Source: an uncultured Gammaproteobacteria bacterium (GTDB lineage: Bacteria; Patescibacteriota; Microgenomatia; CAYXHB01; CAZYTL01). From it: DNA of 64,000 nucleotides. Below, in pieces: positions 1,941 through 52,305 of the stretch; position 1 is the first letter of the stretch; each line of letters starts with the position of its first letter. A program made the translations under genes and the position numbers. The notes under the pieces were generated by a model. It saw only the letters and a program-made list of their open reading frames with translations, ran no database searches and was not told the DNA's origin. The DNA lies in the NCBI GenBank assembly GCA_964650355.1, contig CAZYTL010000006.1, positions 11,019 through 75,018 on the forward strand, read 5' to 3'.

Positions 1941-2123
1941 CAGAATCCCCAATGAAAGGAGGTTGGGGCCTTAGGCAACCCAGAAAGTCCGGGTTTGCCA
2001 GGTGGGATGGCTGCGACGACCCACCCTCCCCAAAGGGGAGCAGGATTTCTGCCTGAGGGCTGATGTCCGAGTCGCAATGGATCGCGAAGCAATAGTTTCC
2101 CCGATGAGGGGAAGGAGGAAATC

Positions 2124-3119
2124 ATGAATAAGAAGCTTCGCCAACTGGGGATCGTCGCCACCGGCGTGGCGATCCTCGGGGTTTTTCTGATCGCCGGTAT
2201 CGCGTTTGCACAAGGACCCGCCGAGGAGGCGCGAACCGATGTCACCTTCTTAGCAAGAGGTGGCGCCTACACATTCACCGTCAAGAGTGGACACGAAGTC
2301 ACCTTGACGGACTTTCAAAACCCCGCCCCCCCAATGACGGCGACGCTCCGGGCGATGTCGCCGTTTAGTTTTACACTGACGGCGCCCGGTGAGCCCCCGG
2401 ACCAGGGAATCGGCAAGACGGAGTCGAGAACCGACCCATTCACGGCCGAGTTCCCGGTCGCCCCCGGGGCGACCATCGGAGTCGAGCGGGCTGATGTCCA
2501 AATCCGCCTGGAAGTGGCCGGTGCCGCCCATTTTGTTTTGGCGGATCGGCCTACCACGGAGCCCACGCCCACCCCGGCCGTCACACCCACCGTCCAGGTC
2601 GGCCGGACCCTCGTCCGCACCACCGGCCCCATCACCTTAACAAAAGGTGTGACGCACACAGTAGTGCTCACACCGAGCGAAGGGGAGCGGTGGGGGTTGG
2701 CCGTCCCCACTGGCACGGTCAGGGTCGAAATGGCCAGCGACGGGGCCTTTGGGTTCGGGGACAGTCTGGCGACCCCAGGCGCCGGGGGGTCGGCCACCCT
2801 CCACGCTGCCTTCGGCCCCGGCAGCGTCGACACCGCGCCAATCGTCACCACCCGGTCTGGGCAGAAGGTGACCGTCACCTTAGTGGCGGACACCGACGTG
2901 ATTGCCACCTGGGTGCGGGACGTGCCGGTGGCGGGCGAGACGCCGAAGGCCAAGCCCGGAACGATGCCGGGGACCTCGGGTGTTTTTGGCCCCAACGGAG
3001 GCAACCCCGAGGAGGGACCAGAGGTGGCCGGCCAGGATGAGCCTGACTTTCCGCCGCCATGGTGTGCTGGTGGCCTACTGCCCTTGGGGGCAGTGGTCTT
3101 CGCCAGTCGGCGGCGATAG
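2124..3119 (+). CDS. secreted Thr/Pro/Gly-rich surface protein with signal peptide and a C-terminal W-C-A-G-G/hydrophobic/RRR anchor (PEP-CTERM/MYXO-CTERM-like sorting signal); encoded in a high-GC island
   Basis: - A strong SD (GGAGG) sits 8 nt upstream of the ATG.
- The N-terminus (MNKKLRQLGIVATGVAILGVFLIAGIAFAQ) is a classic signal peptide.
- The C-terminus reads PPPWCAGGLLPLGAVVFASRRR.
- The region is markedly GC-rich compared with its flanks.
- Large minus-strand ORFs over the same region are treated as shadow ORFs. Confidence 0.6.
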   Translation: MNKKLRQLGIVATGVAILGVFLIAGIAFAQGPAEEARTDVTFLARGGAYTFTVKSGHEVTLTDFQNPAPPMTATLRAMSPFSFTLTAPGEPPDQGIGKTESRTDPFTAEFPVAPGATIGVERADVQIRLEVAGAAHFVLADRPTTEPTPTPAVTPTVQVGRTLVRTTGPITLTKGVTHTVVLTPSEGERWGLAVPTGTVRVEMASDGAFGFGDSLATPGAGGSATLHAAFGPGSVDTAPIVTTRSGQKVTVTLVADTDVIATWVRDVPVAGETPKAKPGTMPGTSGVFGPNGGNPEEGPEVAGQDEPDFPPPWCAGGLLPLGAVVFASRRR

Positions 3120-3186
3120 TCACCGTTCGGGAGCCTGACGGCCGCCTCCCTGGCCGGATGTACCGGCCCGAGGGCTCCTGGACCCA

Positions 3187-3217
3187 GACAGGGGGGTACT
3201 TCTGGTGCCCCCCTGTC
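3187..3217 (+). terminator. GC-rich hairpin (GACAGGGGGG-N11-CCCCCCTGTC) downstream of the high-GC gene
   Basis: Perfect 10-bp stem read directly from the sequence, 68 nt after the stop at 3119. Confidence 0.5.
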
Positions 3218-3478
3218 AGTAAGCATCCTTTTCCTCCGATATGCTTCGGAGGACCTGACCAGGTATTTTCGCTTTCACCACTAGCGGTGAAATGGTTTGA
3301 AAATATCCCTCAGGTAGCGGTAGTAGGGGCTTACTTGAGAAATCAATACCGTTTCGAAGTTTCCCCCAAAGGGACCTCTTCGGGGACGTTTCAAGATAAT
3401 CTATTGATTTTTCAAGGGAGCCTAAGAAAGTAGTTTCAGGCTGTTTGTTTCAAGTTAATATAACTGACTCTTTAACGA

Positions 3479-3671: not shown

Positions 3672-6386
3672 ATGCCAAGTAAAGAAACATCATCATCATT
3701 CAGACGGCGGGTTTGGGAGCAAACCAGGGAAACCCTGCCACCGGCTCTGGCTGGTGCGGGTACCAGGCTGGCAGTGGATGCCGGACTGACCTATTTGGGC
3801 GCAGCTACCTTTCCGGCTACAGCAGTAGCGGTAGGGATCGGCAGTGCAGTGCGCAAAGGAATAGTGGAAGGCAGGAGAAGGAGAAAAAGTACCAAAGGGT
3901 TTTATAACTATCAAGTGACTCGCCATGAAAAAGCTCATGAGCAACCATGGAACGAGGGATGGATTGGAAAAAGATTAGTCAGAGGCGTGAAACGGTTAGC
4001 GGATAATGTGGCGCACGGAACTGAAATGAGGATTACCCAGAAAGCTTTTGATGTGAGGATGAACAAATTTATGGTTGAGTATGCGGCGGAGCACACAACC
4101 TCTTTAAAGGAAGATATTCCAGTTAGCTGCAGAGAATTAGCGATGAATGAATTAAGGAACGAGATAGCTCAGTTAGATCCTCAGATTTCTCGAGCCAGCG
4201 GAAAAGCAAAGCATGAGTTACTATTAGAAAAACACGAACCAATTGATAGCAGAACGAAAGATTTGATAGGAGAGCAGGCTGAAAAAGTAAAGGCTTTCTT
4301 CTTGAGAGTGGCCAGAACAGGTGCTGGGCCAGAAGCGTCAGAAGAGGTAGTGAGTCAATATGCGACTGAAATGGTCAAAGAGAAGTTAATTAATTTCTCT
4401 ATGGCGCATTTAACAGCGGGAAGGAATCAAGAGGTAAAGAATCGGGCTAACGACCTGTATATGGCTTACTACAGAGCCGCTGAAGATTTGGTAGGTGGAG
4501 AAGAGGAAATGAGGTCAATCAGAGATGAAATTTGGCAGGCGATTAAGAAAGAGAGAGCGAGCGCGGGTAAAAAAGCGGTGCGAAGAATAGCCGCAGTGCA
4601 ATTGGCAAAAGGACCGGTTAAATTTTACGCAGGCGGGTTCCTGGCAAGAAAAATAGTCCAAGGAGCCCAGTGGGCAAAAGAGACGTGGGGAATTTCCGCA
4701 CCTCAAGTTCCAGAACCAGTGCATGATGCGGCGCAAAAGGTAGTCAAGAAGGTAAAGCAGGTTTGGAACTGGGTGCGAGGTAAAGGGAATCAGCATCATG
4801 AATTGCCACCGCCTAGTGACCCCAGGAACGTGCAACCCGGAGGATTGGAGTCAGCCAGTTCACCCCTAGCTGATGGTGCCAGACCAGGAGCCGGAGGGCT
4901 GGTAAGAGGAACGGAAAATCAACCTGTTGTAATGGCGATTAATGTGCCTCAAGGAGGGACCCTGTCCGGTGCTTTGGCTGATGCAGGAGTGATTAGTCCG
5001 GATTTTACCCAAGCCGGCAGCGGAGAGGAATTTTTAAAAGCCGTCCAGGATTATTGTGTGGGTTGCGGCAAATTAACCCCTGAGCAACTACAGGAATTGC
5101 AGACAGCGATTAGAAAGGATCCCAACATTTCATTGGGGCAGTTATGGCATGAATATCCGGGGCCTTTTACAGGCTTAAATCATGTCGATCCCGGTGAGGA
5201 GATTGTAACTCACGTGAGTCACCGAGGGCCGAGTGTAGCCTATCCCCTACTCGAACACCCAGCAGTTAATCCGCCTGACCCGGCTCACATACCCGCACAG
5301 GAGGCGCCTATTTTATATAAATATGTGGAAGTGAATGAACACGGACAAAAAGTATTCAAATTGGTGCCGGTCAACTCTGCTGATCAACCAGCGGAGGCAG
5401 CGCACCAAATGGCCACGGAAACCCTGCCTCAACCGCTACAGACGATGGCGAATAATGCCCCGGCCAGGGTGCCGACAATGAATTCGACCGCGAACCTAAC
5501 GACAACGGAGCCTGAAGTTAAATATCGGTATGTTAAGGTAAGGGTTCACGGACAAGAAGAGTTCGTGTTGCAGCCGGTTTCTCATGATCCCTCATTACCA
5601 GAGAGTGCGGACAACGCCCCGACACAGGTGGTTGACCAGTCAACCCAAGCGAGGACTGAAACGGTTCTACCGGCACATAACAGACAACCAGTGAGGGTTG
5701 AACATCCCAGACCAGAGAATTTAACTAGACAACTGATTCATGGGGCACCAGAGAGACACAGCGAGGCCTTGGTTCAAGTTGATTTTAACCGGCCGGGAGC
5801 TAATGGGGGAATAAAATTTAGTTCAAACCTGCCTGAGTTAAGTCCTCCAGCTGGGGTGAGCATGAAATACCGACCAATTGCTTTTGGCCACTTTGACGTG
5901 TTTAACGGAACTAATTACGACGCGTTAAATAATCCAGCTCAGGATGGAATTACTGTTTATGGAAATACCCAATTGACTGGCTTACCAGGTGAGCGGGTTG
6001 GGCTGTTAACCTGTGCTGATTTAGGTAAATCCAGAACGGTGTTAGAGTTCGTGTCGGAATCAACCGTGGACCCTTTGACCCAAGTGGACGCAAATCCGAC
6101 AGTGTTAGTCAGTCATGCTGACGGCTGGTATCATCAAAATAAGCCTAACGAGAAAGAATGGTGGTATGCGCTGTTTGAAATATTCCGCCGAGCGGCAAAG
6201 AATGCTTATGAAGCAACCGGATCGACTTATGGACAATGGGTGGATTTAGACAGTGGAATTAAGGTTTATTTGACTAATCAAGAAGGGAACGTGTTAGTTT
6301 ATACAGCCCGTCGGGCTTTTGTGTTTGAAAATGACAATATTGATGATGTCGACATTAATGATGTGATGGAGATGTTGAAGAACTAA
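3672..6386 (+). CDS. large hypothetical protein (904 aa) with an internal tandem YxYVxVxxHGQxxFxLxPV repeat
   Basis: Long uninterrupted ORF. The N-terminal third is helical and charged. Two tandem about 45-aa repeats (ILYKYVEVNEHGQKVFKLVPVNSADQP and VKYRYVKVRVHGQEEFVLQPVSHDPS). No signal peptide and no recognised catalytic motif. Confidence 0.7.
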   Translation: MPSKETSSSFRRRVWEQTRETLPPALAGAGTRLAVDAGLTYLGAATFPATAVAVGIGSAVRKGIVEGRRRRKSTKGFYNYQVTRHEKAHEQPWNEGWIGKRLVRGVKRLADNVAHGTEMRITQKAFDVRMNKFMVEYAAEHTTSLKEDIPVSCRELAMNELRNEIAQLDPQISRASGKAKHELLLEKHEPIDSRTKDLIGEQAEKVKAFFLRVARTGAGPEASEEVVSQYATEMVKEKLINFSMAHLTAGRNQEVKNRANDLYMAYYRAAEDLVGGEEEMRSIRDEIWQAIKKERASAGKKAVRRIAAVQLAKGPVKFYAGGFLARKIVQGAQWAKETWGISAPQVPEPVHDAAQKVVKKVKQVWNWVRGKGNQHHELPPPSDPRNVQPGGLESASSPLADGARPGAGGLVRGTENQPVVMAINVPQGGTLSGALADAGVISPDFTQAGSGEEFLKAVQDYCVGCGKLTPEQLQELQTAIRKDPNISLGQLWHEYPGPFTGLNHVDPGEEIVTHVSHRGPSVAYPLLEHPAVNPPDPAHIPAQEAPILYKYVEVNEHGQKVFKLVPVNSADQPAEAAHQMATETLPQPLQTMANNAPARVPTMNSTANLTTTEPEVKYRYVKVRVHGQEEFVLQPVSHDPSLPESADNAPTQVVDQSTQARTETVLPAHNRQPVRVEHPRPENLTRQLIHGAPERHSEALVQVDFNRPGANGGIKFSSNLPELSPPAGVSMKYRPIAFGHFDVFNGTNYDALNNPAQDGITVYGNTQLTGLPGERVGLLTCADLGKSRTVLEFVSESTVDPLTQVDANPTVLVSHADGWYHQNKPNEKEWWYALFEIFRRAAKNAYEATGSTYGQWVDLDSGIKVYLTNQEGNVLVYTARRAFVFENDNIDDVDINDVMEMLKN

Positions 6387-33329: not shown

Positions 33330-34047
33330 ATGGCGATTGAGATTGAGCTTCACCCTGCTCAGGCGGAGGTGTTAAAGATATTATTGTTTAGACCGAAGGC
33401 GCGATTCAGGGATTTGAATCTGACGGGGTTAACCAATGATCATTTTACCTGGCATTTGAATAGATTAGTGGAAGTGGGTTTGGTGGAGAAAACAGGAAAA
33501 GGAGAATATCGATTGTCAGTGCAAGGCAAAGAGTTTGCCAATCGCATGGATTCGGAGACGGTCAAGATTGAGAAACAAGCAAAAATAGCAGTGCTAATCG
33601 TGTGTGTGCGGGCAAAAAACGGAAAAACGGAGTATTTTGCAACAACGGTTAAAACAGCCGTATTTTGGATTCTATGGCTTTGTGAGCGGAAAAGTGAAGT
33701 GGGGAGAGTTGGTGGAAGAAGCTGGCAAACGGGAGTTGTGGGAAGAAACCGGCTTGAAAGGCGAACCGCAGTTGACAGGCATCGAGCACAAGGTGGATTA
33801 TGATGGTGGCGGGAAATTATTAGAGGATAAGTTCTTTTACATCATGCGGGTGGACCTGCCTGCACAGGCAGGTGAGCCGGAAGGCCAACTGGTGGCTGAT
33901 TTTGAAGGCGGTAAAAATGTGTGGGTGGAAGAAGGCAAAATAAAGCAGATAGAGAAATTGTTTCAGGATGTGTTGGAAATTATTGAGATAGTGAAGAAAC
34001 GAGGAGTACAGATTTGGGAGCAGAGGTATACGGAAAAGGAATATTAG
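33330..34047 (+). pseudogene. wHTH-NUDIX fusion regulator/hydrolase disrupted by a frameshift near 33614-33650
   Basis: Frame 1 encodes a winged-helix N-terminus ending ...KIAVLIVCVRAKNGKTEYF. The Nudix box (GKVKWGELVEEAGKRELWEETGL) continues in the +1 frame. The shift falls in an A6/A5 homopolymer region. Confidence 0.5.
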
Positions 34048-34537: not shown

Positions 34538-34852
34538 CTAATCTGGGGTGAATTTAATTTGGAGATGCTTGTTCGTTGCATCGGCAACGCGGTAGAGGGT
34601 TTCCAGGGTGATGTTTTGCTGCCCGCTTTCCATTCGGGAAATAAATTCCCGTTTGACTTGCATTTTAGAGGCCAAGTTTTGCTGGGAGAGTTTAGCACTT
34701 TTTCTTAAGGCACGAATAGCCATGGCCACTTGAAGGTATTTGGCTTTGGACAAGATTTGCTGTTGGTCTTTTTGGGAATAACTATCAAAGACTTGGTTGT
34801 AGGTGATGAGATCGCCGTCTTTGATGGCTTGGTTGACTTTTTGTTTATTCAT
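34538..34852 (-). CDS. HTH XRE-family antitoxin (HigA-like)
   Basis: HTH motif LSQQNLASKMQVKREFISRMESGQQNITLETLYRVADA. Overlaps the upstream toxin gene by 8 nt. Confidence 0.6.
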   Translation of the reverse strand: MNKQKVNQAIKDGDLITYNQVFDSYSQKDQQQILSKAKYLQVAMAIRALRKSAKLSQQNLASKMQVKREFISRMESGQQNITLETLYRVADATNKHLQIKFTPD

Positions 34853-35156
34853 AGGCGTGTAATCTTTGTTTGGCTAGTTTAAGATTTTTTAATGGTGTTT
34901 TCTGGGTTTTCTTTTGGAAAAAATGCAGGATGATGATGTGGTCCTGCCAAACGTAGGCATAAAATCCTCGGAAGGTACCCTGGCTTGAGACTCGCATTTC
35001 AAATAGGTTTGGGCCAACTTTTTTAGCTTCGGGGGGTTCGAGCCGACCGAGCTCTTTTAGAACTTGGATTAAGGCTAAAAAGTCTGTCTGGACTCTTTTA
35101 CTAAAATTTTTAAGTTCTTTTTGCGCTCGTTTGTCGAAGAGGATTTGTTTGGGCAT
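34845..35156 (-). CDS. RelE/ParE-superfamily toxin, phage Gp49/HigB-like
   Basis: FEMRVSSQGTFRGFYAYVWQDHIIILHFFQKKTQKTP matches the Gp49-like/HigB pattern. A toxin-first arrangement with a downstream XRE antitoxin is typical of HigBA. Confidence 0.6.
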   Translation of the reverse strand: MPKQILFDKRAQKELKNFSKRVQTDFLALIQVLKELGRLEPPEAKKVGPNLFEMRVSSQGTFRGFYAYVWQDHIIILHFFQKKTQKTPLKNLKLAKQRLHAYE

Positions 35157-35710: not shown

Positions 35711-36097
35711 TTAACGATCATTCACTTCATATAAGGTGTTTAACTTTTGTTCAGGATGAACACAATATCCATAGGATTTTGAGTCAAAAGCAACTCCCAA
35801 ATTTTCGCAGCACGGGGACTTTGTATCATCAATCAAGGGGGATACCCACCCCTCTCCTGGTCCAGCACATTCACCAGTGACTTGGGCATTTTTCTTAACA
35901 CAATAGGTGTTTCTGTTAGAAGCAGTAAATGGCTCTAATCCTTGGCAACATACTGACTGAGGCTCGCTTAACATTCTGCCTGGTTCAATACAGTTTTTGG
36001 TCGTCAATGACGGCACCTCAGGTACCAAAACAAAATACAGGCCTAATAAACAAAAACCTAAAAGTCCTATAAGGAGATACTTTTGCTTAGTTTTCAT
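35711..36097 (-). CDS. small secreted cysteine-rich protein
   Basis: N-terminal signal peptide (MKTKQKYLLIGLLGFCLLGLYFVLV) and 10 Cys in the mature part. Confidence 0.5.
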   Translation of the reverse strand: MKTKQKYLLIGLLGFCLLGLYFVLVPEVPSLTTKNCIEPGRMLSEPQSVCCQGLEPFTASNRNTYCVKKNAQVTGECAGPGEGWVSPLIDDTKSPCCENLGVAFDSKSYGYCVHPEQKLNTLYEVNDR

Positions 36098-36129: not shown

Positions 36130-38070
36130 TCACTCCACCACTTCTCCTTCTTCCGCGCCTTTGGTGTCGGTATCTGAGGAACCGGGTTTAGTGTCGCCCT
36201 TGGGTGCTTTGTCTGAAGTTTTTGAAGCCTTGTCAGAGCTCTTCTGATCGCCGGCAGGAGGTGTTTGCTGTTGTTGCTGGTACATGGCCTGGCCGATCTT
36301 TTGCAAGGTGTCTGAGAGGTCTTTGGATTTGGCCTCGATGTCCTCCTTGGATTCTTTATCCAGAACTTCTTTGAGGGCTTTGACTTTGTCTTCGACTTCT
36401 TTTTTGGTGGCTTCTTCGACTTTGTCGCCGGCATCTTTGAGGGCTTTTTCAGCGGTGAAGATGAGGCCGTCAGCCATATTGCGGGCATCAATGACTTCCT
36501 TTTTCTTTTCGTCTTCGGCTTTGTGTTTGTCAGCCTCGGCTTTGGCTTTTTCAACTTCTTCGTCAGACATGCCCACGGCGCCGGTGATGGTGATTTTTTG
36601 TTCTTTGCCGGTGGCTTTGTCTTTGGCGGTGACGTTTAAGATACCGTTGGCGTCGATGTCAAAGGTGACTTCGATTTGAGGCACGCCGCGGGGAGCAGGG
36701 GGAATACCGTCCAGGCGGAAGGTGCCCAGGGATTTGTTGTCGGAAGCCATGGGGCGCTCGCCCTGAAGCACATGAACCTCGACCTGAGTTTGATTATCGG
36801 CAGCGGTGGAAAAGATCTGAGATTTGGAACTGGGGATGGTGGTATTGCGGTCAATCATGGGAGTGGCCACGCCGCCCAAGGTTTCGATGCTGAGGGTCAG
36901 GGGGGTGACGTCGAGGAGGAGGATGTCTTTGACGTCGCCGGCCAGGACGCCACCCTGGATAGCAGCGCCTACAGCCACGACTTCATCAGGGTTAACACCT
37001 TTGTGAGGTTCTTTGCCAAAGAAGTCTTTGACGACTTGCTGGACTTTAGGCATGCGGGTCATGCCGCCGACCAGGATAACTTCGTTGATGTCTTTAGCGT
37101 CGAGTTTGGCGTCTTTAAGAGCGTCTTTGACGGGTTTGATGGTTTTCTGGATCAGATCGTCAACCAGGGATTCAAGTTTGGCGCGGGTAAGTTTGAGGCT
37201 GAGATGAAGGGGATTACCGTCTTTGGACTGGGTGATGTAGGGTTGGTTGATTTCGGTTTCCTGAGCTGAGGAGAGTTCGATTTTGGCTTTTTCAGCAGCG
37301 TCGCGGATGCGCTGGAGGGCTTGTTTGTCTTTTTTAAGATCCAGGCCATTGTCTTTTTTGAATTCTTCAACGATCCAGTCCACGATGACTTCGTCAAAGT
37401 CGTCGCCGCCCAGGTGGGTGTCGCCGTTGGTGGATTTGACTTCGAAGACGCCGTCGCCGATTTCCAGGATGGAGATGTCAAAGGTGCCACCTCCAAGGTC
37501 GTAAACGGCGATTTTTTCATTGGTTTTTTTATCCAACCCGTAGGCCAGGGCAGCAGCAGTGGGTTCGTTGATGATGCGTTCGACTTTGAGGCCGGCGATT
37601 TCACCGGCTTGTTTGGTGGCCTGGCGCTGGGAATCGTCAAAGTAGGCGGGTACGGTGATGACAGCTTGTTCGACTTTTTCTCCCAGGAATTCTTCGGCGT
37701 GTTTTTTCATGTAGATAAGGACTTTGGCAGAGATTTCCTGAGGGGTGTATTCTTTGTCGCCAACTTTGATCATGGGGGAGCCGTCTTTGCCTTTGACGAT
37801 TTCGTAAGGAACCATTTCTTTGGTGCGCTGGACTTCGGGATCGTCATAGCGGCGGCCGATAAGGCGTTTGGCAGAATAGATGGTGTTTTTGGGGTTAAGC
37901 ACCATCTGGCGTTTGGCCACGTCGCCTACCAGGTTTTTAATGGGTTCGACCACTGAAGGGGTGGTATTTTTACCGGTGTCGTGCGCGGGGATGACTTTGG
38001 GCTGGCCACCCTGCATGATAGCCACGCAGGAGTTGGTAGTGCCGAGGTCAATGCCAATGATTTTTGCCAT
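36130..38070 (-). CDS. dnaK: molecular chaperone DnaK (Hsp70)
   Basis: [17 protein letters not shown]..., [19 protein letters not shown]. Full-length Hsp70. Confidence 0.97.
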
Positions 38071-38132
38071 AAGTTAGTTACCTCAAAAATAAAAGATTAA
38101 ATAGTAAATATAAAAAGGAGAATTAAAAATAC

Positions 38133-38636
38133 TTAGTTATTACGAGGTAAACATGCCAACAAAGCGTCACTCTGGTTATTAATTAAAGTCAAAGTTGGAA
38201 CATCAGTTAAACCCTTTTTGGCCTCCCCTATTCTGCCATTTAAACCGGCAAGAAAGTTGGTTCGAATATTAGGGTCCTCTTGCTCTCTTAAAAATCCTGC
38301 AATTCCTGCAACAACCGCAATAAATTCATCGCCTCTAAAACCCTGCATGCCGGTAATTAAGGCAAATTCATTAGGTTCTTCCTCGGATCTAAGCATTTCA
38401 GTATATTGCATAATTAGTTCGGGAACGTGGGTACCTGAGGTACTTAATCGGACAATTTGTTCTGCTAGAAGTCGCCTCTGTCCTGGGTCAGGAAACGTCG
38501 CCCTTGTTTCTAATAACATTGCACTGGCGATTGAAGGATTAATTCCCTCTACAGTGGTTGTTAGAAATTTTTGAACGTGGTCATGACCTCCTACTGGGCC
38601 ATCAAATCTAGTTGAAGGTTGGAGTTGTTCTGACAT
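38133..38636 (-). CDS. hypothetical protein inserted between grpE and dnaK, with its own CIRCE-controlled promoter
   Basis: 167-aa ORF with no recognised family. Preceded by TTGACA-N17-TACATT overlapping a CIRCE-like palindrome. Confidence 0.5.
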   Translation of the reverse strand: MSEQLQPSTRFDGPVGGHDHVQKFLTTTVEGINPSIASAMLLETRATFPDPGQRRLLAEQIVRLSTSGTHVPELIMQYTEMLRSEEEPNEFALITGMQGFRGDEFIAVVAGIAGFLREQEDPNIRTNFLAGLNGRIGEAKKGLTDVPTLTLINNQSDALLACLPRNN

Positions 38637-38661
38637 ACAGCAGTTATTTTGAGTGTTTTAT

Positions 38662-38698
38662 TTAGCAGTAATGTAACATGAGTGCTAAGGGGTGTCAA
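38662..38698 (-). promoter_or_regulatory. CIRCE operator (TTAGCAGTA-N9-GAGTGCTAA) overlapping a sigma70-like promoter (TTGACA-N17-TACATT) for the 38133 gene and dnaK
   Basis: Read directly from the sequence. The right half-site is a perfect CIRCE consensus and the left half matches 7 of 9. Confidence 0.65.
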
Positions 38699-38798
38699 GA
38701 ATAAATTAGTTTCTAGTTTCAAGTTGCTAGTTTCGAGTGATTATAATGATGTTAGACTTCACGTTTTGTTGCTTTTATGTTTATGTGTTTTCTTGAGT

Positions 38799-39284
38799 TT
38801 ATGTTTCTATATTCTTTGGTTCTTCAGTTGCCTTATATACTTTGACTTTGGCGTGACGGATCACATAGCCGTCAGTATATTTATAGCCGATTTGGGTGAC
38901 TGTGGCAATTTGGTTTTGTTGATCCGCGGATCCTTCTAGGACTTCGATGCATTCGTGTTCGGCTTCGTTAAACTGGGAACCTATTTCGGGATTGATCTCC
39001 TCAATGCCTTCGTCAGTTAAGAGTTGCTGGAATTGTTTGATGATCATGTCCAAGCCTTGATCCTGCAAGTGGCTTTGGGCTGACTGGAGGTGATCGAGTA
39101 GGGGAAGGATTTGGGAGATGAGCTGGGTGTTGGCGTATTTAAGGTATTCCTGGCGTTCTTTTTGAGTTTGTTTAATCAGGTTTTGGTAATCGGCCAAGGC
39201 GCGTTTGTATTTGTCGTCAAGTTCCTCGAGGCGAGGCTGGAGATCCTGGGTCTGGTCCTGTTTGGTAGGTTTTTTCTTTACCAT
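38799..39284 (-). CDS. grpE: nucleotide exchange factor GrpE
   Basis: Coiled-coil N-terminus, then ALADYQNLIKQTQKERQEY...ISQILPLLDHLQSA and the C-terminal beta domain. Confidence 0.85.
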   Translation of the reverse strand: MVKKKPTKQDQTQDLQPRLEELDDKYKRALADYQNLIKQTQKERQEYLKYANTQLISQILPLLDHLQSAQSHLQDQGLDMIIKQFQQLLTDEGIEEINPEIGSQFNEAEHECIEVLEGSADQQNQIATVTQIGYKYTDGYVIRHAKVKVYKATEEPKNIET

Positions 39285-40006
39285 GATCGGGCGATTTCGT
39301 TTATCAGGTCGCTGAAGTAGCGGAGGCGGGGAATGGCGTAAGGAAAGTTAAGTCTGGCTGGTCCGATGAGGCCAATTTTTCCATAGAGATCAGGATTGAC
39401 TTGAAAATCGGCATAGACGTAACTGACGGGCTCCAAATAAGGATCGTTAAGTTCTTCGCCAAAGAGAATATGGATGGGGCCTTGGCTGGCTGAACGGGAG
39501 AAGAGTTTCATGAGTTGTTCTGTTTGGTCAAGCATGGCCAGCACGTGACGGGTAACGTCAATGTCATAAAATTCGGGCATGTTAAGGAGATGGGCGTAGC
39601 CGGCAGAGTACACCTGGCCCTGATTAGTACAAGCCACAGCCACGGTTTGGGCTTGGTTAGCCAAGGCTAAAGTGGCTTGTTGAAGCAGCCGGTCAATATC
39701 GTGTCGATAATCCCAAACTTTTTCTTTGGTGGAAACTTCTTCGGATACGGAAAGGGGCTTTTCCTGCATGAGTTCGTTAACGTAGAGTTTGAGGGCGACA
39801 GCGCTGGGCACCCGACCGGCTGAGGTATGCGGTTGTTTAAGGTAGCCAAGTTGGGTTAAAGAGCTCATTTCGTTGCGAATAGTAGCGGGGGAGACGCCAA
39901 TGTTGTATTTGCGTTCAATGGTTTCTGAGCCCACGGCTTCAGCGGTGTCAATGAATTCTTCAATGATGGCTTTGAGGATTTGGAGTTGGCGGGGAGTGAG
40001 GTTCAT
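39278..40006 (-). CDS. hrcA: heat-inducible transcription repressor HrcA
   Basis: MNLTPRQLQILKAIIEEFIDTAEAVGSETI...SPATIRNEMSSLTQLGYLKQPHTSAGRVPS. The start is placed at ATG 40004-40006 rather than 40039, because the upstream 11 codons are built from the promoter-region repeats. Confidence 0.85.
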   Translation of the reverse strand: MNLTPRQLQILKAIIEEFIDTAEAVGSETIERKYNIGVSPATIRNEMSSLTQLGYLKQPHTSAGRVPSAVALKLYVNELMQEKPLSVSEEVSTKEKVWDYRHDIDRLLQQATLALANQAQTVAVACTNQGQVYSAGYAHLLNMPEFYDIDVTRHVLAMLDQTEQLMKLFSRSASQGPIHILFGEELNDPYLEPVSYVYADFQVNPDLYGKIGLIGPARLNFPYAIPRLRYFSDLINEIARSW

Positions 40007-40076
40007 AACACGTAGCATGTAACACGTAGCACGTAACAATTTGTTCCAGGTTACGTGTTAGGTGTTACTTGACTCT

Positions 40077-40114
40077 TTGGCACTAATTTACCACGAGTGC
40101 TAGGGGAATGTCAA
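40077..40114 (-). promoter_or_regulatory. CIRCE operator (TTGGCACTA-N9-GAGTGCTAG) overlapping promoter TTGACA-N18-TAAATT upstream of hrcA-grpE
   Basis: Read directly from the sequence. Same architecture as the 38662 element. Confidence 0.65.
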
Positions 40115-44909: not shown

Positions 44910-45908
44910 ATGGGCAAGAGAAGCAGCAAGGTATTCATCGTCACCAATGAAGATGACCCTCACGTTGACTCGTTAACCCCTCAATTGCAAGCACTGGGTG
45001 CGGAAGTTTTTAGATTTGATACTGAATACTTCCCCACAAAGATAAAGATCAATTTGCAATATACGAGTGGAGACTTGAACGGGGTAATAGAGTGGCCTAC
45101 TGCGAGAGCTAACTTATTTGAGTTTACGAGTGTTTGGTATAGAAGGCCTGTTCGAGGAAAAATATCTAATGAGATTACTAACCCCATTTACAAAAAATTA
45201 GCTAATTCAGAGACAGAGCAATTCTTGTTGCAATTATGGAACGTGATGTTTGAAAAAGGAGTTTTTTTTGTCAGTCCTTGGCAATCCTTGGAAATTGGCG
45301 AAAGGAAACTAGGGCAATTGAAGGTGGCCTCAAAACTGGGAATGCGCACTCCTCAAACACTAGTCACTAACAATATTGATGAGGCAAAAGGATTTTGTAA
45401 ATTTTTAAATAATGATGTGGTGGTTAAGCACATTAGATCCACTTCTTTTATTGATAGCGGACGCAGGCGTCTTTGGTTGGCCACCAAGCATTTGTCTGCT
45501 CAACATTTAAAAAATGTTAGCTATATAAAATACGCCCCTTCCTTTTTGCAAGAGAATATTCACAAAAAATATGATATTAGAGTGACGGTGATTGGTAAAA
45601 AGGTATTTGCGGTTAAAATTGACAGCCAACAATATGAGGACACTAAAATCGATTGGAGGTTTGCAGAACACTCAGAAAGTTTAAAATATGAAGTGATTAA
45701 GTTGCCACAGAGGGTGACAAATTTTTGTTTACAACTAGTCGAGTATTATAAGCTGGCGTTTGGAGCCATTGATTTGGCATTATCTGAAAATGATGAGTAT
45801 GTATTTTTTGAAATAAACCCTAATGGACAATTTCTTTGGCTTGATGATAAAACTGATTTGCAATTGGGAAAAGAGATGGCAAAATTTCTAATACGTGGCA
45901 AAATGTAA
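44910..45908 (+). CDS. ATP-grasp RiPP macrocyclase (microviridin MdnC/MvdD family, graspetide maturase)
   Basis: VFRFDTEYFPTKIKINL, SVWYRRP, PSFLQENI...IRVTVIGKKVFAVKIDSQQYEDTKIDWR and FGAIDLAL...YVFFEINPNGQFLWL track MdnC-family motifs along the whole length. Confidence 0.7.
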   Translation: MGKRSSKVFIVTNEDDPHVDSLTPQLQALGAEVFRFDTEYFPTKIKINLQYTSGDLNGVIEWPTARANLFEFTSVWYRRPVRGKISNEITNPIYKKLANSETEQFLLQLWNVMFEKGVFFVSPWQSLEIGERKLGQLKVASKLGMRTPQTLVTNNIDEAKGFCKFLNNDVVVKHIRSTSFIDSGRRRLWLATKHLSAQHLKNVSYIKYAPSFLQENIHKKYDIRVTVIGKKVFAVKIDSQQYEDTKIDWRFAEHSESLKYEVIKLPQRVTNFCLQLVEYYKLAFGAIDLALSENDEYVFFEINPNGQFLWLDDKTDLQLGKEMAKFLIRGKM

Positions 45909-45910
45909 CT

Positions 45911-47002
45911 ATGTCTGAAAATAACCCATCTACTACTGCAGAGATGCGCTTGCAAATTCCTCTGAAAGGAAAACTGGCTAAGACGGCACAGGATGCTGAG
46001 TCGCCGATTCACTTTGTAGGCAAGAGGCTGGCAGAGAAAGTGGGGGCAAAATTCAGTTTCACAAGTGAAAAAGGAGGCGAAAAAATGAAAATGGGTTCTT
46101 TTTTTGCGGAAATGCTCGAATATGATGGAAAAGAGCAAGTGCCGGAGAGTGACGCCCCGCCGGAAGAATGGAACACCTTTATGAATACATACTTTCAGGA
46201 GTTGGCCGAAAATCCAGACACAGTTAGATTATTCCGCGCTGAAAGATATGGAGAGGGAAAAGTTCCCCGGTTATTGGAAATGCATTTGCCGCCGATGCCA
46301 AAAACTAAAGAGGGCTACCGAGATTTCCTGAGGTCCAGGCATCTATTGGCTGGATTACTAGCCGCGTATCAGCAGGAAATTGTGATGATGGTAGGAGTTA
46401 CCAGAATTATGGATGAATCTGTAATAAAACCTGACCATGAAAGAAGGTTGGGCTTTAATTTCAGTAAAATTGAATTAGACAAACTCGATACCAAACATAG
46501 ATTAGCACAACGAATGATAGCGAAATCACCTAACTTGCCACATAAAGATTTACCAATAAAGGGTATTTATATGCCGACGAAAGAATTTTTAGAAAGGGAT
46601 GAGGTGAGTCTGGCGACAGACGAAGAAGGCTGGTTTTTGCAAGCGGGTCCGGTGAAATTTAATTTTTATAAAGCAGGTGAACTAGACATGGAACGTTTAA
46701 GTGCTGATGAGCCGTCCGATAATGTGGACGAAATTGAGGTGGAAATGCCTGGAAATATTAATGAAATAAGTGCAAAAGATAGAGAAAGAGCAAAGTATGT
46801 ACTGGCTGGGTTTTTAAGAAATTTATTACTAGTAGGGACGGTTTCAATGGTCGTAGACGCTGAGAATCCTGACCAAATCCAATTGGCAAAGGATTTGGGG
46901 ATGAAGAGGGGACGGCGTGAAGGGGAAGGTAAAATCAGACTACAGACTACGAGGGCCCTTTTGGAAGAGGAGTGTTATGTACCAACGGGAGAATTCAAGT
47001 AA
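45911..47002 (+). CDS. hypothetical protein, third gene of the graspetide-like operon
   Basis: 363-aa ORF starting 3 nt after the ATP-grasp stop. No TM segment and no recognised family. Confidence 0.5.
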   Translation: MSENNPSTTAEMRLQIPLKGKLAKTAQDAESPIHFVGKRLAEKVGAKFSFTSEKGGEKMKMGSFFAEMLEYDGKEQVPESDAPPEEWNTFMNTYFQELAENPDTVRLFRAERYGEGKVPRLLEMHLPPMPKTKEGYRDFLRSRHLLAGLLAAYQQEIVMMVGVTRIMDESVIKPDHERRLGFNFSKIELDKLDTKHRLAQRMIAKSPNLPHKDLPIKGIYMPTKEFLERDEVSLATDEEGWFLQAGPVKFNFYKAGELDMERLSADEPSDNVDEIEVEMPGNINEISAKDRERAKYVLAGFLRNLLLVGTVSMVVDAENPDQIQLAKDLGMKRGRREGEGKIRLQTTRALLEEECYVPTGEFK

Positions 47003-47499: not shown

Positions 47500-49488
47500 C
47501 TATACTGGGATGCCTGGAGGAGGTGGTGCGGTAACTGCTTTGATTCGTTCTAGTCGCTTTTTGTCTTTGAAGGCGGCGGTTAATGTCTGTCCTAATTCCT
47601 GAGCATCATGAGCAAGGGTTGATTTCTCGGTTACTTTTCCAGCAGCGGTTTCTGTCGTAGGAACAATTTTTTCGACAGCTTTTTCAGCCAGACCTGGTTC
47701 GGGCGCGTTTAATTTTTGGAGCGTATTATCTACAATTCGATAGCCGATAAGAGCTGGTTGTTGTGCTTGGCGTAAACCATCGTTAACCCGTTCATCAACA
47801 TCGTGGGTGCCTCTAAGTAAGGCAACTACTGACATGACTGCGATACTTTCGGCTTCAAGCTGCGTTGCTCCAGCATGTTCAGATGCGGCACTAAGGAGAT
47901 GGATAATTTCTAGCCCGTGATGGCTTTGCATCCAAGAAGCCCAATGATCGTAAGCGAGACCGTTCGCAAAACGGATGGCTTCATTGATATCGGGATGCTC
48001 GCTAATTCTTCCCGGAATAACTTGCCTTTTCTTGCCTCCTTCTGGCTGATAATCTGGTGCAGCGGCAGCCAGTTCTCTTACAGAATCGCCAACTTGATCA
48101 AGAGCGTCGCTTCCTAATTTATCACTGTTGTCATTAACGACTCTGACTTCCACAGATGCAGCATAAAGAGAAAGTGCTCTTTTGGCCACTTCTTGGGCAT
48201 GATTCCTAGCTTCAGGTGATTTTATACCTTCAGGCCCGAGTAACTTTTCAACGTTGGCAGGATCGGCCAGAAATTCTGCGGCTTTTACGGATGAGAAACC
48301 TTCAGTGTCGGGTTCCTTTTTACTTTCTAAACCGTCTTCGAGAGCTCCGGCTAGATAAGCGATGGCTGTCATTTGATCTTTTAATTGTTGTTGTTCTGCG
48401 AGCTTTTCTCCATTTCGTTTGTCGTTTTCATCCAATTTAGTGGGGCGCATCATGACTTCGGTTTCTCTCTGGGTGAACCATTCCTTTAACACTCCTTGAC
48501 TTCTCTCAAATCTTGCTCCGGTAAGCGGGACAACCTTGATAGCTTCTTGGGATAATAGGCGCATGCGTTTGAGTTCCGCCTGGTCGGCTCCTATTCTTCC
48601 TTGTCTATCGGCTAAATCTATTAAAGGGACATTGTCGGCTGTATCCGGATCCTTATCAATATAGGTAGCCATTCTAACTCGTTCTGCAGGCAGTTCATGC
48701 ACCGGATCGAGTTTAGCCTCAGAGAGAGGAGAATTTTCACCACTGAGAAAGATGCGATAGAATGCCATCCTGGTCGTATCTACCGTTCTGGCTACTTGAT
48801 CAGAATCTTTTATTTTGATTTCTTTCAGGCCTTGGCGACAATCAGCGACAAGCTTGGCTTCTTTACTAGCAATTGTGCCTTCAACAATGGTCTTCCAGCG
48901 ATTATTGAGCTCGGCTCTCGCAATACCAGATTCAGGAGAGAGGGTGTAGGTGGCCACAAATTCGTTGACAGCTTGGCTGTTATCAACAGCATTAGCTACA
49001 GTACCTTCAAGTTCACCTGCGCGTTCTTTCTGAAGGATAGCTATCACGTCCTCTTCGGCGGCGCGATAAGCTTGACGGTAGGCTTCAATCTTACCTTGAT
49101 ACCCCTCAAGTTGATGCGCGAGCTGGCCGTACCGTTTTTCCCCATTTAGTTCTACGAGTCTTTGATCCTTTTCTTGCCTAAGTTGTTGTTCATAACGTGC
49201 TTGTGCCTCTTGAGGATCTGCAGGCTCAGCGAGGGTGGCCCGATTAGCACCATTCAGCTGGTCGAGGATACGTAAATTGCGAAGAGCGGTTTCTGCTCCA
49301 AGTTTAAATATGTCAACTTCATGTGGTTGCGTAAGGGCGTCAAAGGCAGCGCCGGCTGCTGTTTCTAATTGTGGACTGGTAGCCTCAGGCTGAGGTGCAA
49401 GTCTGGTTATTTTGAATTCCTCTGTTGTTTCTGTGGGTGTTTCGGACATCTTGAGTGTGAGTATGGCTGAAAAGGGGAATTGTGTCAA
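47500..49488 (-). CDS. large hypothetical protein (662 aa)
   Basis: Long ORF (start possibly at the internal MSETPTE). Helical, with no recognised motif. Co-oriented with 49510-50124. Confidence 0.5.
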   Translation of the reverse strand: MTQFPFSAILTLKMSETPTETTEEFKITRLAPQPEATSPQLETAAGAAFDALTQPHEVDIFKLGAETALRNLRILDQLNGANRATLAEPADPQEAQARYEQQLRQEKDQRLVELNGEKRYGQLAHQLEGYQGKIEAYRQAYRAAEEDVIAILQKERAGELEGTVANAVDNSQAVNEFVATYTLSPESGIARAELNNRWKTIVEGTIASKEAKLVADCRQGLKEIKIKDSDQVARTVDTTRMAFYRIFLSGENSPLSEAKLDPVHELPAERVRMATYIDKDPDTADNVPLIDLADRQGRIGADQAELKRMRLLSQEAIKVVPLTGARFERSQGVLKEWFTQRETEVMMRPTKLDENDKRNGEKLAEQQQLKDQMTAIAYLAGALEDGLESKKEPDTEGFSSVKAAEFLADPANVEKLLGPEGIKSPEARNHAQEVAKRALSLYAASVEVRVVNDNSDKLGSDALDQVGDSVRELAAAAPDYQPEGGKKRQVIPGRISEHPDINEAIRFANGLAYDHWASWMQSHHGLEIIHLLSAASEHAGATQLEAESIAVMSVVALLRGTHDVDERVNDGLRQAQQPALIGYRIVDNTLQKLNAPEPGLAEKAVEKIVPTTETAAGKVTEKSTLAHDAQELGQTLTAAFKDKKRLERIKAVTAPPPPGIPV

Positions 49489-49509
49489 GCGCCAGCGTGT
49501 CTGATTTAT

Positions 49510-50124
49510 TTAAATCCGGTAATCCATGATAGGCACCAAGGTTCTTTCAACTGGGGAAATAGCCAACCTACCTTCGCTCAATTCGGCGAGAATTTGGGCG
49601 GCATGCAAGACAGCAATGTGGGGTTTTGCCTGATAAGTACAAACGACATCATCAGTCAACCTTTGTTCAGGAGTTCTAGAGTCAAAAGATGGACCTAGAA
49701 ATATATCGACTTTTGGTGATGGCCCAAAATTAAGCCCCTCAAGCTGAAGTCGAGACTGGCTTTCTCTGAGAGCCGTTGTTAATTCTTCATCTGAGACTTT
49801 TTGTTCGTTATTGCGTGCTGTATCTGCTTGGCGAAGAAAGTGCATCATATAATTTCCCATAGTAAGTCTGTATCCTGTCAGAATTAATTGTCTTGCCTGA
49901 TCAGGCGATAAACCGTCTATAGGTAAGTTTCTTTCTAGCTCTCTATGCCTAATGGCACGAGCTTCAGACAAGAATTGATGATCTGTTTCTGAAGAATGAG
50001 TGAATGGGGAGATGTCTGGACACCCAACTCTATCACCGATAAAAGCTCTTACTACCTTTCTGTTCTGATCAATCCAGTAAGAATAAGGTTGAGATCTATT
50101 TTCTCTTGACTTGTTGTTCAACAT
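49510..50124 (-). CDS. hypothetical protein (204 aa)
   Basis: ORF lying 21 nt upstream of the 662-aa gene. No recognised family. Confidence 0.45.
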   Translation of the reverse strand: MLNNKSRENRSQPYSYWIDQNRKVVRAFIGDRVGCPDISPFTHSSETDHQFLSEARAIRHRELERNLPIDGLSPDQARQLILTGYRLTMGNYMMHFLRQADTARNNEQKVSDEELTTALRESQSRLQLEGLNFGPSPKVDIFLGPSFDSRTPEQRLTDDVVCTYQAKPHIAVLHAAQILAELSEGRLAISPVERTLVPIMDYRI

Positions 50125-51987: not shown

Positions 51988-52305
51988 ATGTCTAGTTCGT
52001 ATCAAGAATTGGATGTGTGGAAGCTTGGTGTAGAACTAGCAGTGTTGGTATATAGAGTAACCAGTCAATTTCCTCAACATGAATTGTACGGCCTCACCAG
52101 TCAAATGCGCAGAGCCTCGGTAGCCGTGGCTTCGAACATTGCGGAAGGTCAAGGCCGGGGATCGAGGAAGGAATTTCGACAATTTTTAAGGATTGCATTT
52201 GGTTCGCTTTTAGAATTAGAAACTCAAGTCGTAATAGCTGAAAGAATTGGATATTTAAATCAAGCTGAGAAGGATAAAATTTTGGAGATGAGCTTGAGGG
52301 TTTAG
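51988..52305 (+). CDS. four-helix-bundle protein (23S rRNA intervening-sequence protein/Avd-like family)
   Basis: ELDVWKLGVELAVLVYRVTSQFPQHELYGLTSQMRRASVAVASNIAEG...EFRQFLRIAFGSLLELETQVVIAER is the family signature. Confidence 0.75.
   Translation: MSSSYQELDVWKLGVELAVLVYRVTSQFPQHELYGLTSQMRRASVAVASNIAEGQGRGSRKEFRQFLRIAFGSLLELETQVVIAERIGYLNQAEKDKILEMSLRV

What the first reader, a model, noticed from the sequence alone, without database searches (positions are those of the whole stretch)
36130..40114. hrcA-grpE-dnaK operon interrupted by an unknown 167-aa gene that has its own CIRCE-controlled promoter
Two near-consensus CIRCE palindromes (40077-40103 and 38662-38688) each overlap a TTGACA-Nx-TAnATT promoter. 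The two promoters share a core (TTGACA + CCCCTTAGCACTC / TCCCCTAGCACTC). The second drives a gene of unknown function inserted between grpE and dnaK. A novel HrcA-regulon member embedded in the canonical chaperone operon is a candidate co-chaperone or stress factor.
Basis: partly seen in the sequence, partly recalled or inferred. Interest (0 to 1): 0.55.

Follow-up and report, generated by a model that had tools for sequence, protein, structure and literature searches.

The report
Foreign orphan gene behind dnaK promoter
In this uncultured Patescibacteria-like bacterium, a recently acquired gene of unknown function sits between the dnaK chaperone gene and dnaK's own heat-shock promoter, so it probably borrows that promoter and is unlikely to be a conserved new chaperone partner.

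Summary
On the minus strand lie hrcA, grpE, a 167-aa ORF (X167) and dnaK. The window's only two CIRCE-like palindromes each overlap a TTGACA/extended -10 promoter (2 sites found, 0.03 expected by chance).

All six non-redundant relatives with GrpE at least 55% identical that span grpE-dnaK carry the same second CIRCE promoter, almost base for base. In five of them it lies 4-168 nt upstream of dnaK with no gene between. It is therefore the lineage's own dnaK promoter, not a promoter X167 brought with it.

X167 is missing from all 50 related loci. Billions of database proteins yielded one homologous cluster (about 25% identity), at an unrelated locus with no CIRCE. X167 has the lowest GC3 (0.30) of 50 ORFs in the window and lacks the genome's strand skew, which points to recent foreign origin.

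In relatives the grpE-dnaK gap holds other, unrelated extras: Hsp20, 23S-rRNA-IVP four-helix-bundle proteins and small orphans. One relative has an unrelated 75-aa ORF downstream of the promoter.

X167 is predicted to be all-alpha (pLDDT 75) and matched no family or known fold.

Best reading: X167 is an accessory gene inserted into the dnaK leader and co-transcribed with dnaK under HrcA control. Its function is unknown. Interest is modest.

The parts
40085..40114 (-). P1, a sigma-70-type promoter for hrcA-grpE: -35 TTGACA 40114-40109, 18-nt spacer, TG-extended -10 TAAATT 40090-40085.
   Evidence: Promoter scan, 10/12 match. The same architecture lies upstream of hrcA in about 30 related loci.
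40077..40103 (-). CIRCE-1, the inferred HrcA operator: CTAGCACTC-GTGGTAAAT-TAGTGCCAA. It overlaps the spacer, the -10 and the predicted start site of P1.
   Evidence: Nearly identical operators occur in L014, L015, L016 and L017.
39278..40018 (-). hrcA, a short-form HrcA repressor. The start is probably ATG 40018 or 40006; the longest ORF starts at TTG 40039.
   Evidence: Pfam HrcA C-terminal and winged-helix domains. The N-terminal 80 aa align to T. maritima HrcA 1STZ at E 4e-15. The independent gene call is 246 aa.
38799..39284 (-). grpE (161 aa). Its ATG overlaps the hrcA stop codon (ATGGTAA).
   Evidence: Pfam GrpE 9e-33; sequence read directly.
38699..38798 (-). A-rich spacer between grpE and P2, with no terminator-like hairpin.
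   Evidence: No minus-strand terminator found. RNA fold z-score -0.44.
38670..38698 (-). P2, the ancestral dnaK promoter: -35 TTGACA 38698-38693, 17-nt spacer, TG-extended -10 TACATT 38675-38670.
   Evidence: The block TCTTGAC...TTAGCACTC.TG.TA..TTA.TGCTA is invariant in an alignment with six related dnaK-upstream regions.
38662..38688 (-). CIRCE-2: TTAGCACTC-ATGTTACAT-TACTGCTAA. It overlaps P2.
   Evidence: The same operator (0-2 base differences in L015/16, L018-20, L048 and L049/50; more diverged in L051) lies 4-168 nt upstream of dnaK in L015/16, L018/20, L048, L049/50 and L051. In L019 it lies 262 nt upstream, with a 75-aa ORF in between.
38133..38636 (-). X167, a 167-aa orphan ORF inserted between P2 and dnaK. 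It is predicted to be all-alpha and cytoplasmic, and its composition is foreign.
   Evidence: No hit in Pfam, NCBIfam, PHROGs or PADLOC. Only one distant homologous cluster, P0002/P0041. GC3 0.30, the lowest of 50 ORFs, and no strand skew. AF2 pLDDT 75, 8 helices. No Foldseek match.
38071..38132 (-). 62-nt AT-rich spacer between X167 and dnaK, with a GAGG Shine-Dalgarno motif about 12 nt before the dnaK ATG. No promoter-like or terminator-like site.
   Evidence: RNA fold z-score -0.34.
36130..38070 (-). dnaK (646 aa).
   Evidence: Pfam HSP70 1e-258. 61-88% identical to the dnaK of relatives.

Best explanation
This is a classical HrcA/CIRCE-repressed chaperone locus of a Patescibacteria-like lineage with two operator-overlapped sigma-70-type promoters. 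P1 drives hrcA-grpE, and P2 is the lineage's own dnaK promoter. X167 is a recently and horizontally acquired accessory gene that landed in the short leader between P2 and dnaK. It is therefore the first cistron of the P2 transcript. With no terminator after grpE, it probably also lies on read-through transcripts from P1. HrcA bound to CIRCE would occlude the -35/-10 region at both promoters. When HrcA is inactivated by heat or protein-folding stress, X167 and DnaK should be induced together. X167 is most likely a passenger that benefits from, or is merely tolerated at, a strong inducible promoter, not a dedicated partner of the chaperones. The grpE-dnaK gap of this subclade behaves as a variable slot that holds different unrelated small genes in different genomes. 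Shown here: the gene identities, the two operators and promoters, their conservation, the ancestry of P2, the absence of X167 from relatives, and its foreign composition. Inferred: HrcA binding, heat induction, co-transcription, and the passenger status of X167.
For: (1) Gene identities and the operators and promoters.
(2) P2 is ancestral. A CIRCE promoter of nearly the same sequence (TTAGCACTC[A/G]TGnTACATTACTGCTAA; more diverged in L051) sits between grpE and dnaK in L015/16, L018-20, L048, L049/50 and L051. Those are all six non-redundant loci with GrpE at least 55% identical that span the gap. It also occurs in L035 (GrpE 46% identical). In every locus but L019 it lies 4-168 nt from the dnaK ATG with no ORF between. 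The P1-type operator (TAAATTAGTGC) and the P2-type operator (TACATTACTGC) are each conserved across genomes, so the two promoters diverged before these genomes split.
(3) X167 is not part of the conserved operon. tblastn with X167 and with P0002 finds nothing at E<=1 in 50 related loci. A word-seeded search of 5.8 billion clusters finds only X167 itself. Exhaustive phmmer over 1.84 billion representatives adds only P0002 (25% identity, full length, E 1e-4). A profile search adds nothing new.
(4) P0002 lies beside a MacB-type ABC transporter and housekeeping genes, with no chaperone gene and no CIRCE.
(5) Foreign composition. X167 has GC3 0.30 and C3 0.16. hrcA, grpE and dnaK have GC3 0.52-0.61 and C3 0.38-0.49. 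X167 has the lowest GC3 of 50 ORFs and lacks the strand skew of resident genes.
(6) The slot is variable. It holds Hsp20 in distant relatives, 23S_rRNA_IVP/bAvd proteins in L015-17 and L048, a 146-aa orphan in L049, an 81-aa membrane protein in L051, a different ORF start in L014, and an unrelated 75-aa ORF downstream of P2 in L019.
(7) There is no terminator or promoter between X167 and dnaK, or between grpE and P2.
(8) X167 looks like a real protein. It aligns full-length to P0002 (pairwise E 2e-13), G at first codon positions is 0.33, and AF2 with 3 sequences gives pLDDT 75 and pTM 0.76.
Against: There are no expression data, so promoter activity, HrcA binding and co-transcription are inferred from sequence and from what is known in Bacillus and other bacteria. 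No very close relative spans the junction. The best GrpE matches are 73% identical (contig ends 119 nt after grpE) and 65% identical (a different gene follows), so an X167-bearing sister lineage that has not been sequenced cannot be excluded. Position directly behind a heat-shock operator and ahead of dnaK is what one would expect of a functional stress gene, and passenger status is not proven. Low GC3 could in principle reflect something other than recent transfer. The L018/L019 comparison (insert present or absent with identical upstream DNA) could be a metagenome assembly chimera.
Confidence: 0.75

Rival explanations
1. X167 is a genuine lineage-specific stress factor. It could be a DnaK co-factor or adaptor, or a feedback modulator of HrcA, placed under CIRCE control because its function is needed with DnaK. 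The precedent is chlamydial HagF, a lineage-specific, HrcA-repressed, heat-induced protein that binds HrcA and blocks its dimerisation.
For: X167 sits immediately downstream of a conserved CIRCE promoter and immediately upstream of dnaK. It is predicted to be a folded, soluble helical protein. The HagF precedent is PMC12154930. In more distant relatives the same slot holds a real chaperone, Hsp20.
Against: X167 is absent from all related operons. The homologue whose locus was read is neither chaperone-linked nor CIRCE-controlled. Its composition is foreign and unameliorated. It has no similarity to a J-domain, GrpE, Hsp20, a TPR domain or any other Pfam, NCBIfam or PDB family. In close relatives the slot holds functionally unrelated genes.
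Confidence: 0.15
2. X167 is not a functional protein gene here. It would be a decaying or untranslated ORF in an expanded dnaK leader.
For: There is no Shine-Dalgarno motif upstream. It occurs in a single genome. It matches no known family.
Against: Only 7 of 37 genes in the window have an SD-like motif, so its absence says little. The 167-codon ORF is intact and aligns end to end with a 164-aa protein from another organism. Its codon-position composition is coding-like. The AF2 model is confident for so shallow an alignment.
Confidence: 0.07
3. The grpE-X167-dnaK arrangement is an assembly chimera joined at the conserved CIRCE promoter sequence.
For: The 40-nt promoter/operator is conserved among strains and could mislead an assembler. 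The L018/L019 pair shows identical upstream DNA and different downstream DNA.
Against: An independent Logan assembly of run SRR14802573 gives the identical hrcA-grpE-X167-dnaK sequence. The flanking synteny matches relatives: a Polysacc_synt flippase and an epimerase lie upstream of hrcA, as in L015 and L049. The dnaK that follows X167 is of the expected clade (84-97% identity to the dnaK N-termini of close relatives).
Confidence: 0.03

Closest known systems
Class I heat-shock operon hrcA-grpE-dnaK(-dnaJ) under HrcA/CIRCE control (Bacillus subtilis paradigm, Zuber & Schumann 1994, cited from general knowledge and via PMC3192767)
   Same: The gene order hrcA-grpE-...-dnaK is the same. The operator type is TTAGCACTC-N9-GAGTGCTAA at a sigma-70/sigma-A-type promoter. 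The repressor is encoded as the first gene of its own operon.
   Different: There is a second, internal CIRCE promoter dedicated to dnaK. The operators overlap the -35/-10 spacer and the -10 itself; in B. subtilis, from general knowledge, CIRCE lies downstream of the -10. HrcA is about 90 aa shorter. No dnaJ follows dnaK. A foreign orphan gene is inserted in the dnaK leader.
hrcA-grpE-hsp20-dnaK-dnaJ operons of other Patescibacteria MAGs (L002-L011)
   Same: An extra small gene occupies the grpE-dnaK gap, and a CIRCE promoter lies upstream of hrcA.
   Different: There the extra gene is a bona fide Hsp20 (Pfam 1e-21) and there is a single CIRCE with the -35 inside its loop. X167 has no Hsp20 similarity.
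HagF (CT016/CTL0271) of Chlamydia, a lineage-specific HrcA-repressed anti-HrcA protein (PMC12154930)
   Same: Both are lineage-restricted small proteins that are, or here are predicted to be, repressed by HrcA and heat-induced. HagF is a functional analogy for the most interesting reading of X167.
   Different: HagF is conserved across Chlamydia species and its function was shown experimentally. X167 is found in one genome only, no sequence comparison with HagF was made, and no interaction data exist.
23S_rRNA_IVP / bAvd-like four-helix-bundle genes embedded in the same operon of close relatives (L015-18, L020, L048)
   Same: They are small all-helical accessory proteins inserted next to grpE in the same subclade.
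   Different: They lie upstream of P2, not behind it. Profile-profile comparison with X167 gives a probability of 0.1%. The window has its own IVP gene elsewhere, at 51988-52305.

Membership tests
HrcA/CIRCE regulon (class I heat-shock operon) | An HrcA repressor gene is present. | tested here: met
   Pfam HrcA 4.7e-19 plus the winged-helix domain. The N-terminus aligns to 1STZ at E 4e-15.
HrcA/CIRCE regulon (class I heat-shock operon) | The inverted repeat TTAGCACTC-N9-GAGTGCTAA is present in the promoter region. | tested here: met
   Two sites with 2 and 3 mismatches, the only ones in 64 kb, against 0.03 expected. Both overlap the best promoter matches.
HrcA/CIRCE regulon (class I heat-shock operon) | The operator is conserved at the orthologous position in relatives. 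| tested here: met
   P1-type operators lie upstream of hrcA in all 26 non-redundant loci that include the hrcA upstream region. P2-type operators lie upstream of dnaK in 7 loci, including all six with GrpE at least 55% identical.
HrcA/CIRCE regulon (class I heat-shock operon) | HrcA binds the operator, and the genes are derepressed by heat. | not testable with these tools
   This needs EMSA or ChIP and transcript measurements.
[quoted passage not shown] | Orthologues are present at the same position in related genomes. | tested here: not met
   No X167 or P0002 hit at E<=1 in 50 related loci. Other genes or nothing occupy the slot.
Known co-chaperone, chaperone or defence families (J-domain, GrpE, Hsp20, TPR and others) | Sequence or fold similarity to a described family. 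| tested here: not met
   Pfam, NCBIfam, PHROGs and PADLOC gave 0 hits. The PDB profile search gave only whole-sequence hits to designed repeat proteins, with no matched stretch passing the threshold on its own. Foldseek against PDB and BFVD gave best E 0.46 and 0.66, with TM<=0.36.
23S_rRNA_IVP / bAvd four-helix-bundle family | Profile similarity to PF05635 members found in relatives' operons. | tested here: not met
   hhalign probability 0.1%, E 0.43. No Pfam hit.
Mobile-element insertion (IS or transposon cassette) | Terminal inverted repeats, a target-site duplication, or a transposase or integrase gene. | tested here: not met
   Only short repeats of 9-24 nt at chance level flank X167, and none brackets the insert. 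No recombinase gene lies next to it.

The most novel reading that the evidence does not exclude
The stretch between grpE and dnaK, including the leader just downstream of the CIRCE-controlled dnaK promoter, may be a recurrent landing pad in this Patescibacteria subclade where unrelated accessory genes are placed under heat-shock control. X167, with a fold not matched in the PDB, would then be a lineage-specific HrcA-regulon effector that acts on HrcA or DnaK, for example a HagF-like feedback modulator or a DnaK adaptor.
Probability: 0.12. Interest if true: 0.6.

Novelty: new variant of a known kind. Interest (0 to 1): 0.3.

Why it matters
The regulation itself is textbook HrcA/CIRCE. Three points are new. 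First, this subclade of candidate-phyla-radiation bacteria has a dedicated, deeply conserved CIRCE promoter for dnaK inside the operon. Second, the grpE-dnaK gap is a variable slot that holds different small genes in different genomes. Third, in this genome a foreign orphan gene has been wired into the heat-shock regulon by inserting behind that promoter. It shows how a new gene can gain stress-inducible expression by promoter capture in a streamlined genome. It also cautions against inferring function from position alone. If X167 did act on HrcA or DnaK, it would be a second example, after chlamydial HagF, of a lineage-specific add-on to the HrcA circuit.

Tried and rejected
- Function for X167 from sequence. 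Pfam, NCBIfam, PHROGs and PADLOC gave nothing.
- More family members. The word-seeded search found only X167 itself. The exhaustive search found one distant homologue. A profile search added nothing new. The family has three known sequences, two of them in one 90% cluster.
- Solved structures. The profile matched only designed armadillo-type proteins as whole sequences, with no matched stretch passing the threshold on its own, so I treat these as non-significant.
- Fold. The single-sequence AF2 model (pLDDT 56) gave generic helical-repeat hits at E>=0.03. The better model (pLDDT 75) gave no hit in the PDB or BFVD. The two models differ in topology, so I make no fold claim beyond 'all-alpha, about 8 helices'.
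- X167 as a diverged Hsp20 (the gene in this slot in distant relatives) or a diverged IVP/bAvd protein (the gene in close relatives). Rejected.
- Mobile-element signatures around the insert. None found.
- Terminator or extra promoter between grpE, X167 and dnaK. None found. The MFE fold does contain an 8-bp pairing between the 3' end of X167 and the dnaK Shine-Dalgarno region, but it is not better than shuffled sequence (z -0.34).
- A CIRCE near the P0002 homologue. None found.
- P2 as a recent duplicate of P1. The shared core is what a promoter plus operator requires. P1-type and P2-type sequences are each conserved across genomes, so any duplication is old.
- Other chaperone genes in the window. 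No dnaJ, hsp20 or groESL.
- L014's partial ORF after grpE. From memory it looks like a BrnT/DUF497 toxin N-terminus (FEWDxxNxxKNxxKH), but Pfam gave no hit on the 31-aa fragment, so this stays unverified.
- Literature on HrcA in Patescibacteria. Nothing relevant.


Full report
**1. What is there**

On the minus strand the window carries four ORFs:
- hrcA, 39278-40039 as the longest ORF. Relatives and an independent gene call point to ATG 40018 or 40006 as the start.
- grpE, 38799-39284. Its ATG overlaps the hrcA stop codon.
- A 167-aa ORF, 38133-38636, called X167 here.
- dnaK, 36130-38070.

Pfam confirms HrcA, GrpE and HSP70 and finds nothing for X167. The HrcA N-terminus aligns to the solved T. 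maritima HrcA at E 4e-15.

The CIRCE consensus with up to 3 mismatches occurs exactly twice in 64 kb, at 38662-38688 and 40077-40103, against 0.03 expected by chance. A clade-specific version of the operator also finds only these two sites. The two best sigma-70-like promoter matches in the region coincide with them: TTGACA-18-TAAATT and TTGACA-17-TACATT, both TG-extended. In each, the left CIRCE arm lies in the -35/-10 spacer, the -10 sits in the loop, and the right arm starts with the last T of the -10.

**2. Relatives show that the second promoter belongs to dnaK**

- *Distant relatives.* The nearest species representatives in GTDB are Patescibacteria MAGs with GrpE 37-46% identical. Their operon is hrcA-grpE-hsp20-dnaK-dnaJ with one CIRCE, upstream of hrcA.
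- *Closer relatives.* A GrpE protein search found homologues at 47-73% identity, and I fetched the contigs of eight of them (51-73% identical).
- *Metagenome scan.* An exact-pattern scan for the promoter/operator gave 27 more loci.
- *Summary table.* Thirty non-redundant loci contain both grpE and dnaK. Seven of them have a second CIRCE between the two genes. These seven include all six with GrpE at least 55% identical to the window's (L015, L018, L019, L048, L049, L051).
- *Sequence and position.* In five of those six the operator is almost identical to the window's (TTAGCACTC[A/G]TGnTACATTACTGCTAA); L051's is more diverged. It is preceded by the same TCTTGACA. In all but L019 it lies 4-168 nt before the dnaK ATG with no ORF in between.
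- *Age.* The hrcA-type operator (TAAATTAGTGC) and the dnaK-type operator (TACATTACTGC) are each conserved across genomes. The two promoters are therefore old and orthologous within the subclade.

P2 is therefore the lineage's dnaK promoter, and X167 sits inside what is elsewhere a short dnaK leader.

**3. X167 is not conserved and looks foreign**

- tblastn with X167 finds nothing at E<=1 in any of the 50 related loci.
- The word-seeded search of 5.8 billion protein clusters returned only X167 itself.
- The exhaustive phmmer search of 1.84 billion representatives added one protein, P0002 (164 aa, 25% identity over the full length, E 1e-4). The pairwise BLASTP E-value is 2e-13.
- A profile search added nothing new. 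P0002's 90% cluster holds one more sequence, P0041.
- P0002 lies next to a MacB-type ABC exporter and housekeeping genes, with no chaperone gene and no CIRCE.
- X167 has GC3 0.30, the lowest of 50 ORFs in the window. Its third-position C is 0.16, against 0.38-0.49 in hrcA, grpE and dnaK. Resident genes carry a very strong replication-type strand skew that X167 lacks.
- No transposon-like repeats bracket it.

Recent horizontal acquisition is the simplest reading.

**4. The slot is variable**

| Locus | What sits between grpE and dnaK (unless stated) |
|---|---|
| L015-17, L048 | 23S_rRNA_IVP/bAvd four-helix-bundle gene |
| L018, L020, L013 | The same family, but between hrcA and grpE |
| L049 | 146-aa orphan |
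| L051 | 81-aa membrane protein |
| L014 | A different ORF start |
| L052 and many wider relatives | Nothing |

All of these extras lie upstream of P2. Only L019 resembles the window. It has an unrelated 75-aa Cys-rich ORF between P2 and dnaK, while L018 and L020, with an identical GrpE and upstream DNA, have dnaK 4 nt after the operator. That pair suggests strain-level polymorphism downstream of P2, but an assembly chimera cannot be excluded.

**5. What X167 is**

- It looks like a real protein. The full-length homologue, a coding-like codon-position composition and an AF2 model with pLDDT 75 and pTM 0.76 from only three sequences (eight helices) all support this.
- It has no signal peptide or membrane segment that I could see in the sequence.
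- It matches nothing in Pfam, NCBIfam, PHROGs or PADLOC.
- It has no convincing match to PDB sequences and no Foldseek match in the PDB or BFVD.
- It is not related to the IVP family.
- The missing Shine-Dalgarno motif is uninformative, because only 7 of 37 genes in the window have one.

**6. Mechanism (inferred)**

HrcA bound to CIRCE-1 and CIRCE-2 would occlude both promoters. On stress, P1 gives hrcA-grpE and P2 gives X167-dnaK. No terminator-like hairpin separates grpE from P2, or X167 from dnaK, and no promoter-like site lies in the 62-nt X167-dnaK spacer. Two things follow:
- dnaK expression must pass through X167.
- X167 should be co-induced with DnaK.

I rate 'foreign passenger that captured the dnaK promoter' at about 0.75. 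'Genuine stress factor or HrcA/DnaK modulator', for which chlamydial HagF is a precedent (PMC12154930), gets about 0.15. Non-functional ORF gets about 0.07 and assembly artefact about 0.03. The identical sequence in an independent Logan assembly argues against an artefact.

**7. Verdict**

The regulatory system is a known kind. The internal dnaK CIRCE promoter, the variable slot and the promoter-capturing orphan make it a new variant. Interest is modest (0.3).

Noticed in passing
window 2000-3300: A 65-70% GC island sits in a 45.5% GC window. The plus-strand ORF 2124-3119 (331 aa) has an N-terminal signal/TM segment and a C-terminal hydrophobic stretch ending in RRR. It has no Pfam hit and no plasmid DNA match. 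It looks like a surface protein gene acquired from a high-GC donor.
   Followed up: partly
whole window: There is a very strong strand asymmetry. The plus strand is G-rich at third codon positions whatever the gene orientation: G3 is about 0.35-0.45 and C3 about 0.09-0.20 in resident plus-strand genes, and C3 is about 0.26-0.50 and G3 about 0.12-0.20 in resident minus-strand genes. A second class of about 12 genes has low GC3 (0.30-0.40) and weak skew, including X167, 35711-36097, 44910-45908 and 47500-50124. These are probably recent acquisitions.
   Followed up: partly
window 35711-36097 (-): Where relatives have dnaJ, dnaK is followed by a 128-aa Cys-rich orphan with an N-terminal signal/TM segment and low GC3 (0.35). 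No dnaJ, hsp20 or groESL lies anywhere in the window.
   Followed up: partly
window 34538-35156 (-): A Gp49-like (HigB/RelE-type) toxin gene overlaps an HTH_3 antitoxin gene. This is a type II toxin-antitoxin pair about 1 kb downstream of dnaK.
   Followed up: no
window 44910-47002 (+): An MvdD-like ATP-grasp enzyme (pre-ATP-grasp plus RimK domains) is followed by a 363-aa protein with no family. This could be a graspetide/microviridin-type peptide-modification cluster. No precursor peptide was looked for.
   Followed up: no
window 51988-52305 (+): A 23S_rRNA_IVP four-helix-bundle gene (Pfam 7.6e-35). It belongs to the family that is embedded inside the hrcA-grpE-dnaK operon of close relatives, but here it lies 12 kb away.
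   Followed up: partly
window 39278-40018 (-) and L002-L052: HrcA in this clade is short, 229-258 aa against 338 aa in T. maritima. Only the winged-helix domain aligns to 1STZ by phmmer, and the Pfam C-terminal profile is matched only from position 75. Part of the canonical HrcA architecture therefore seems to be missing.
   Followed up: partly
L002, L007, L009, L011 (about 4540-5411); L003, L005, L010 (about 4770-5435): In distant Patescibacteria relatives GrpE is fused at its N-terminus to a NUDIX hydrolase domain (Pfam-checked in L002) or to a DUF1653 domain (Pfam-checked in L003). The other loci are listed by ORF length and N-terminal sequence only. The window has a separate NUDIX gene at 33604-34047.
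   Followed up: partly
L018 1845-1900: In this relative the dnaK ATG lies 4 nt after the CIRCE right arm. The predicted transcript would therefore be leaderless or nearly so.
   Followed up: no
window 40019-40060 (-): The hrcA leader contains repeated ACGTG(C/T)TAC motifs (gttacgtgctacgtgttacatgctacgtgtt) of unknown meaning.
   Followed up: no
L035 about 4879: This relative (GrpE 46% identical) has a third CIRCE-like site, immediately downstream of dnaK. The gene it precedes was not examined.
   Followed up: no
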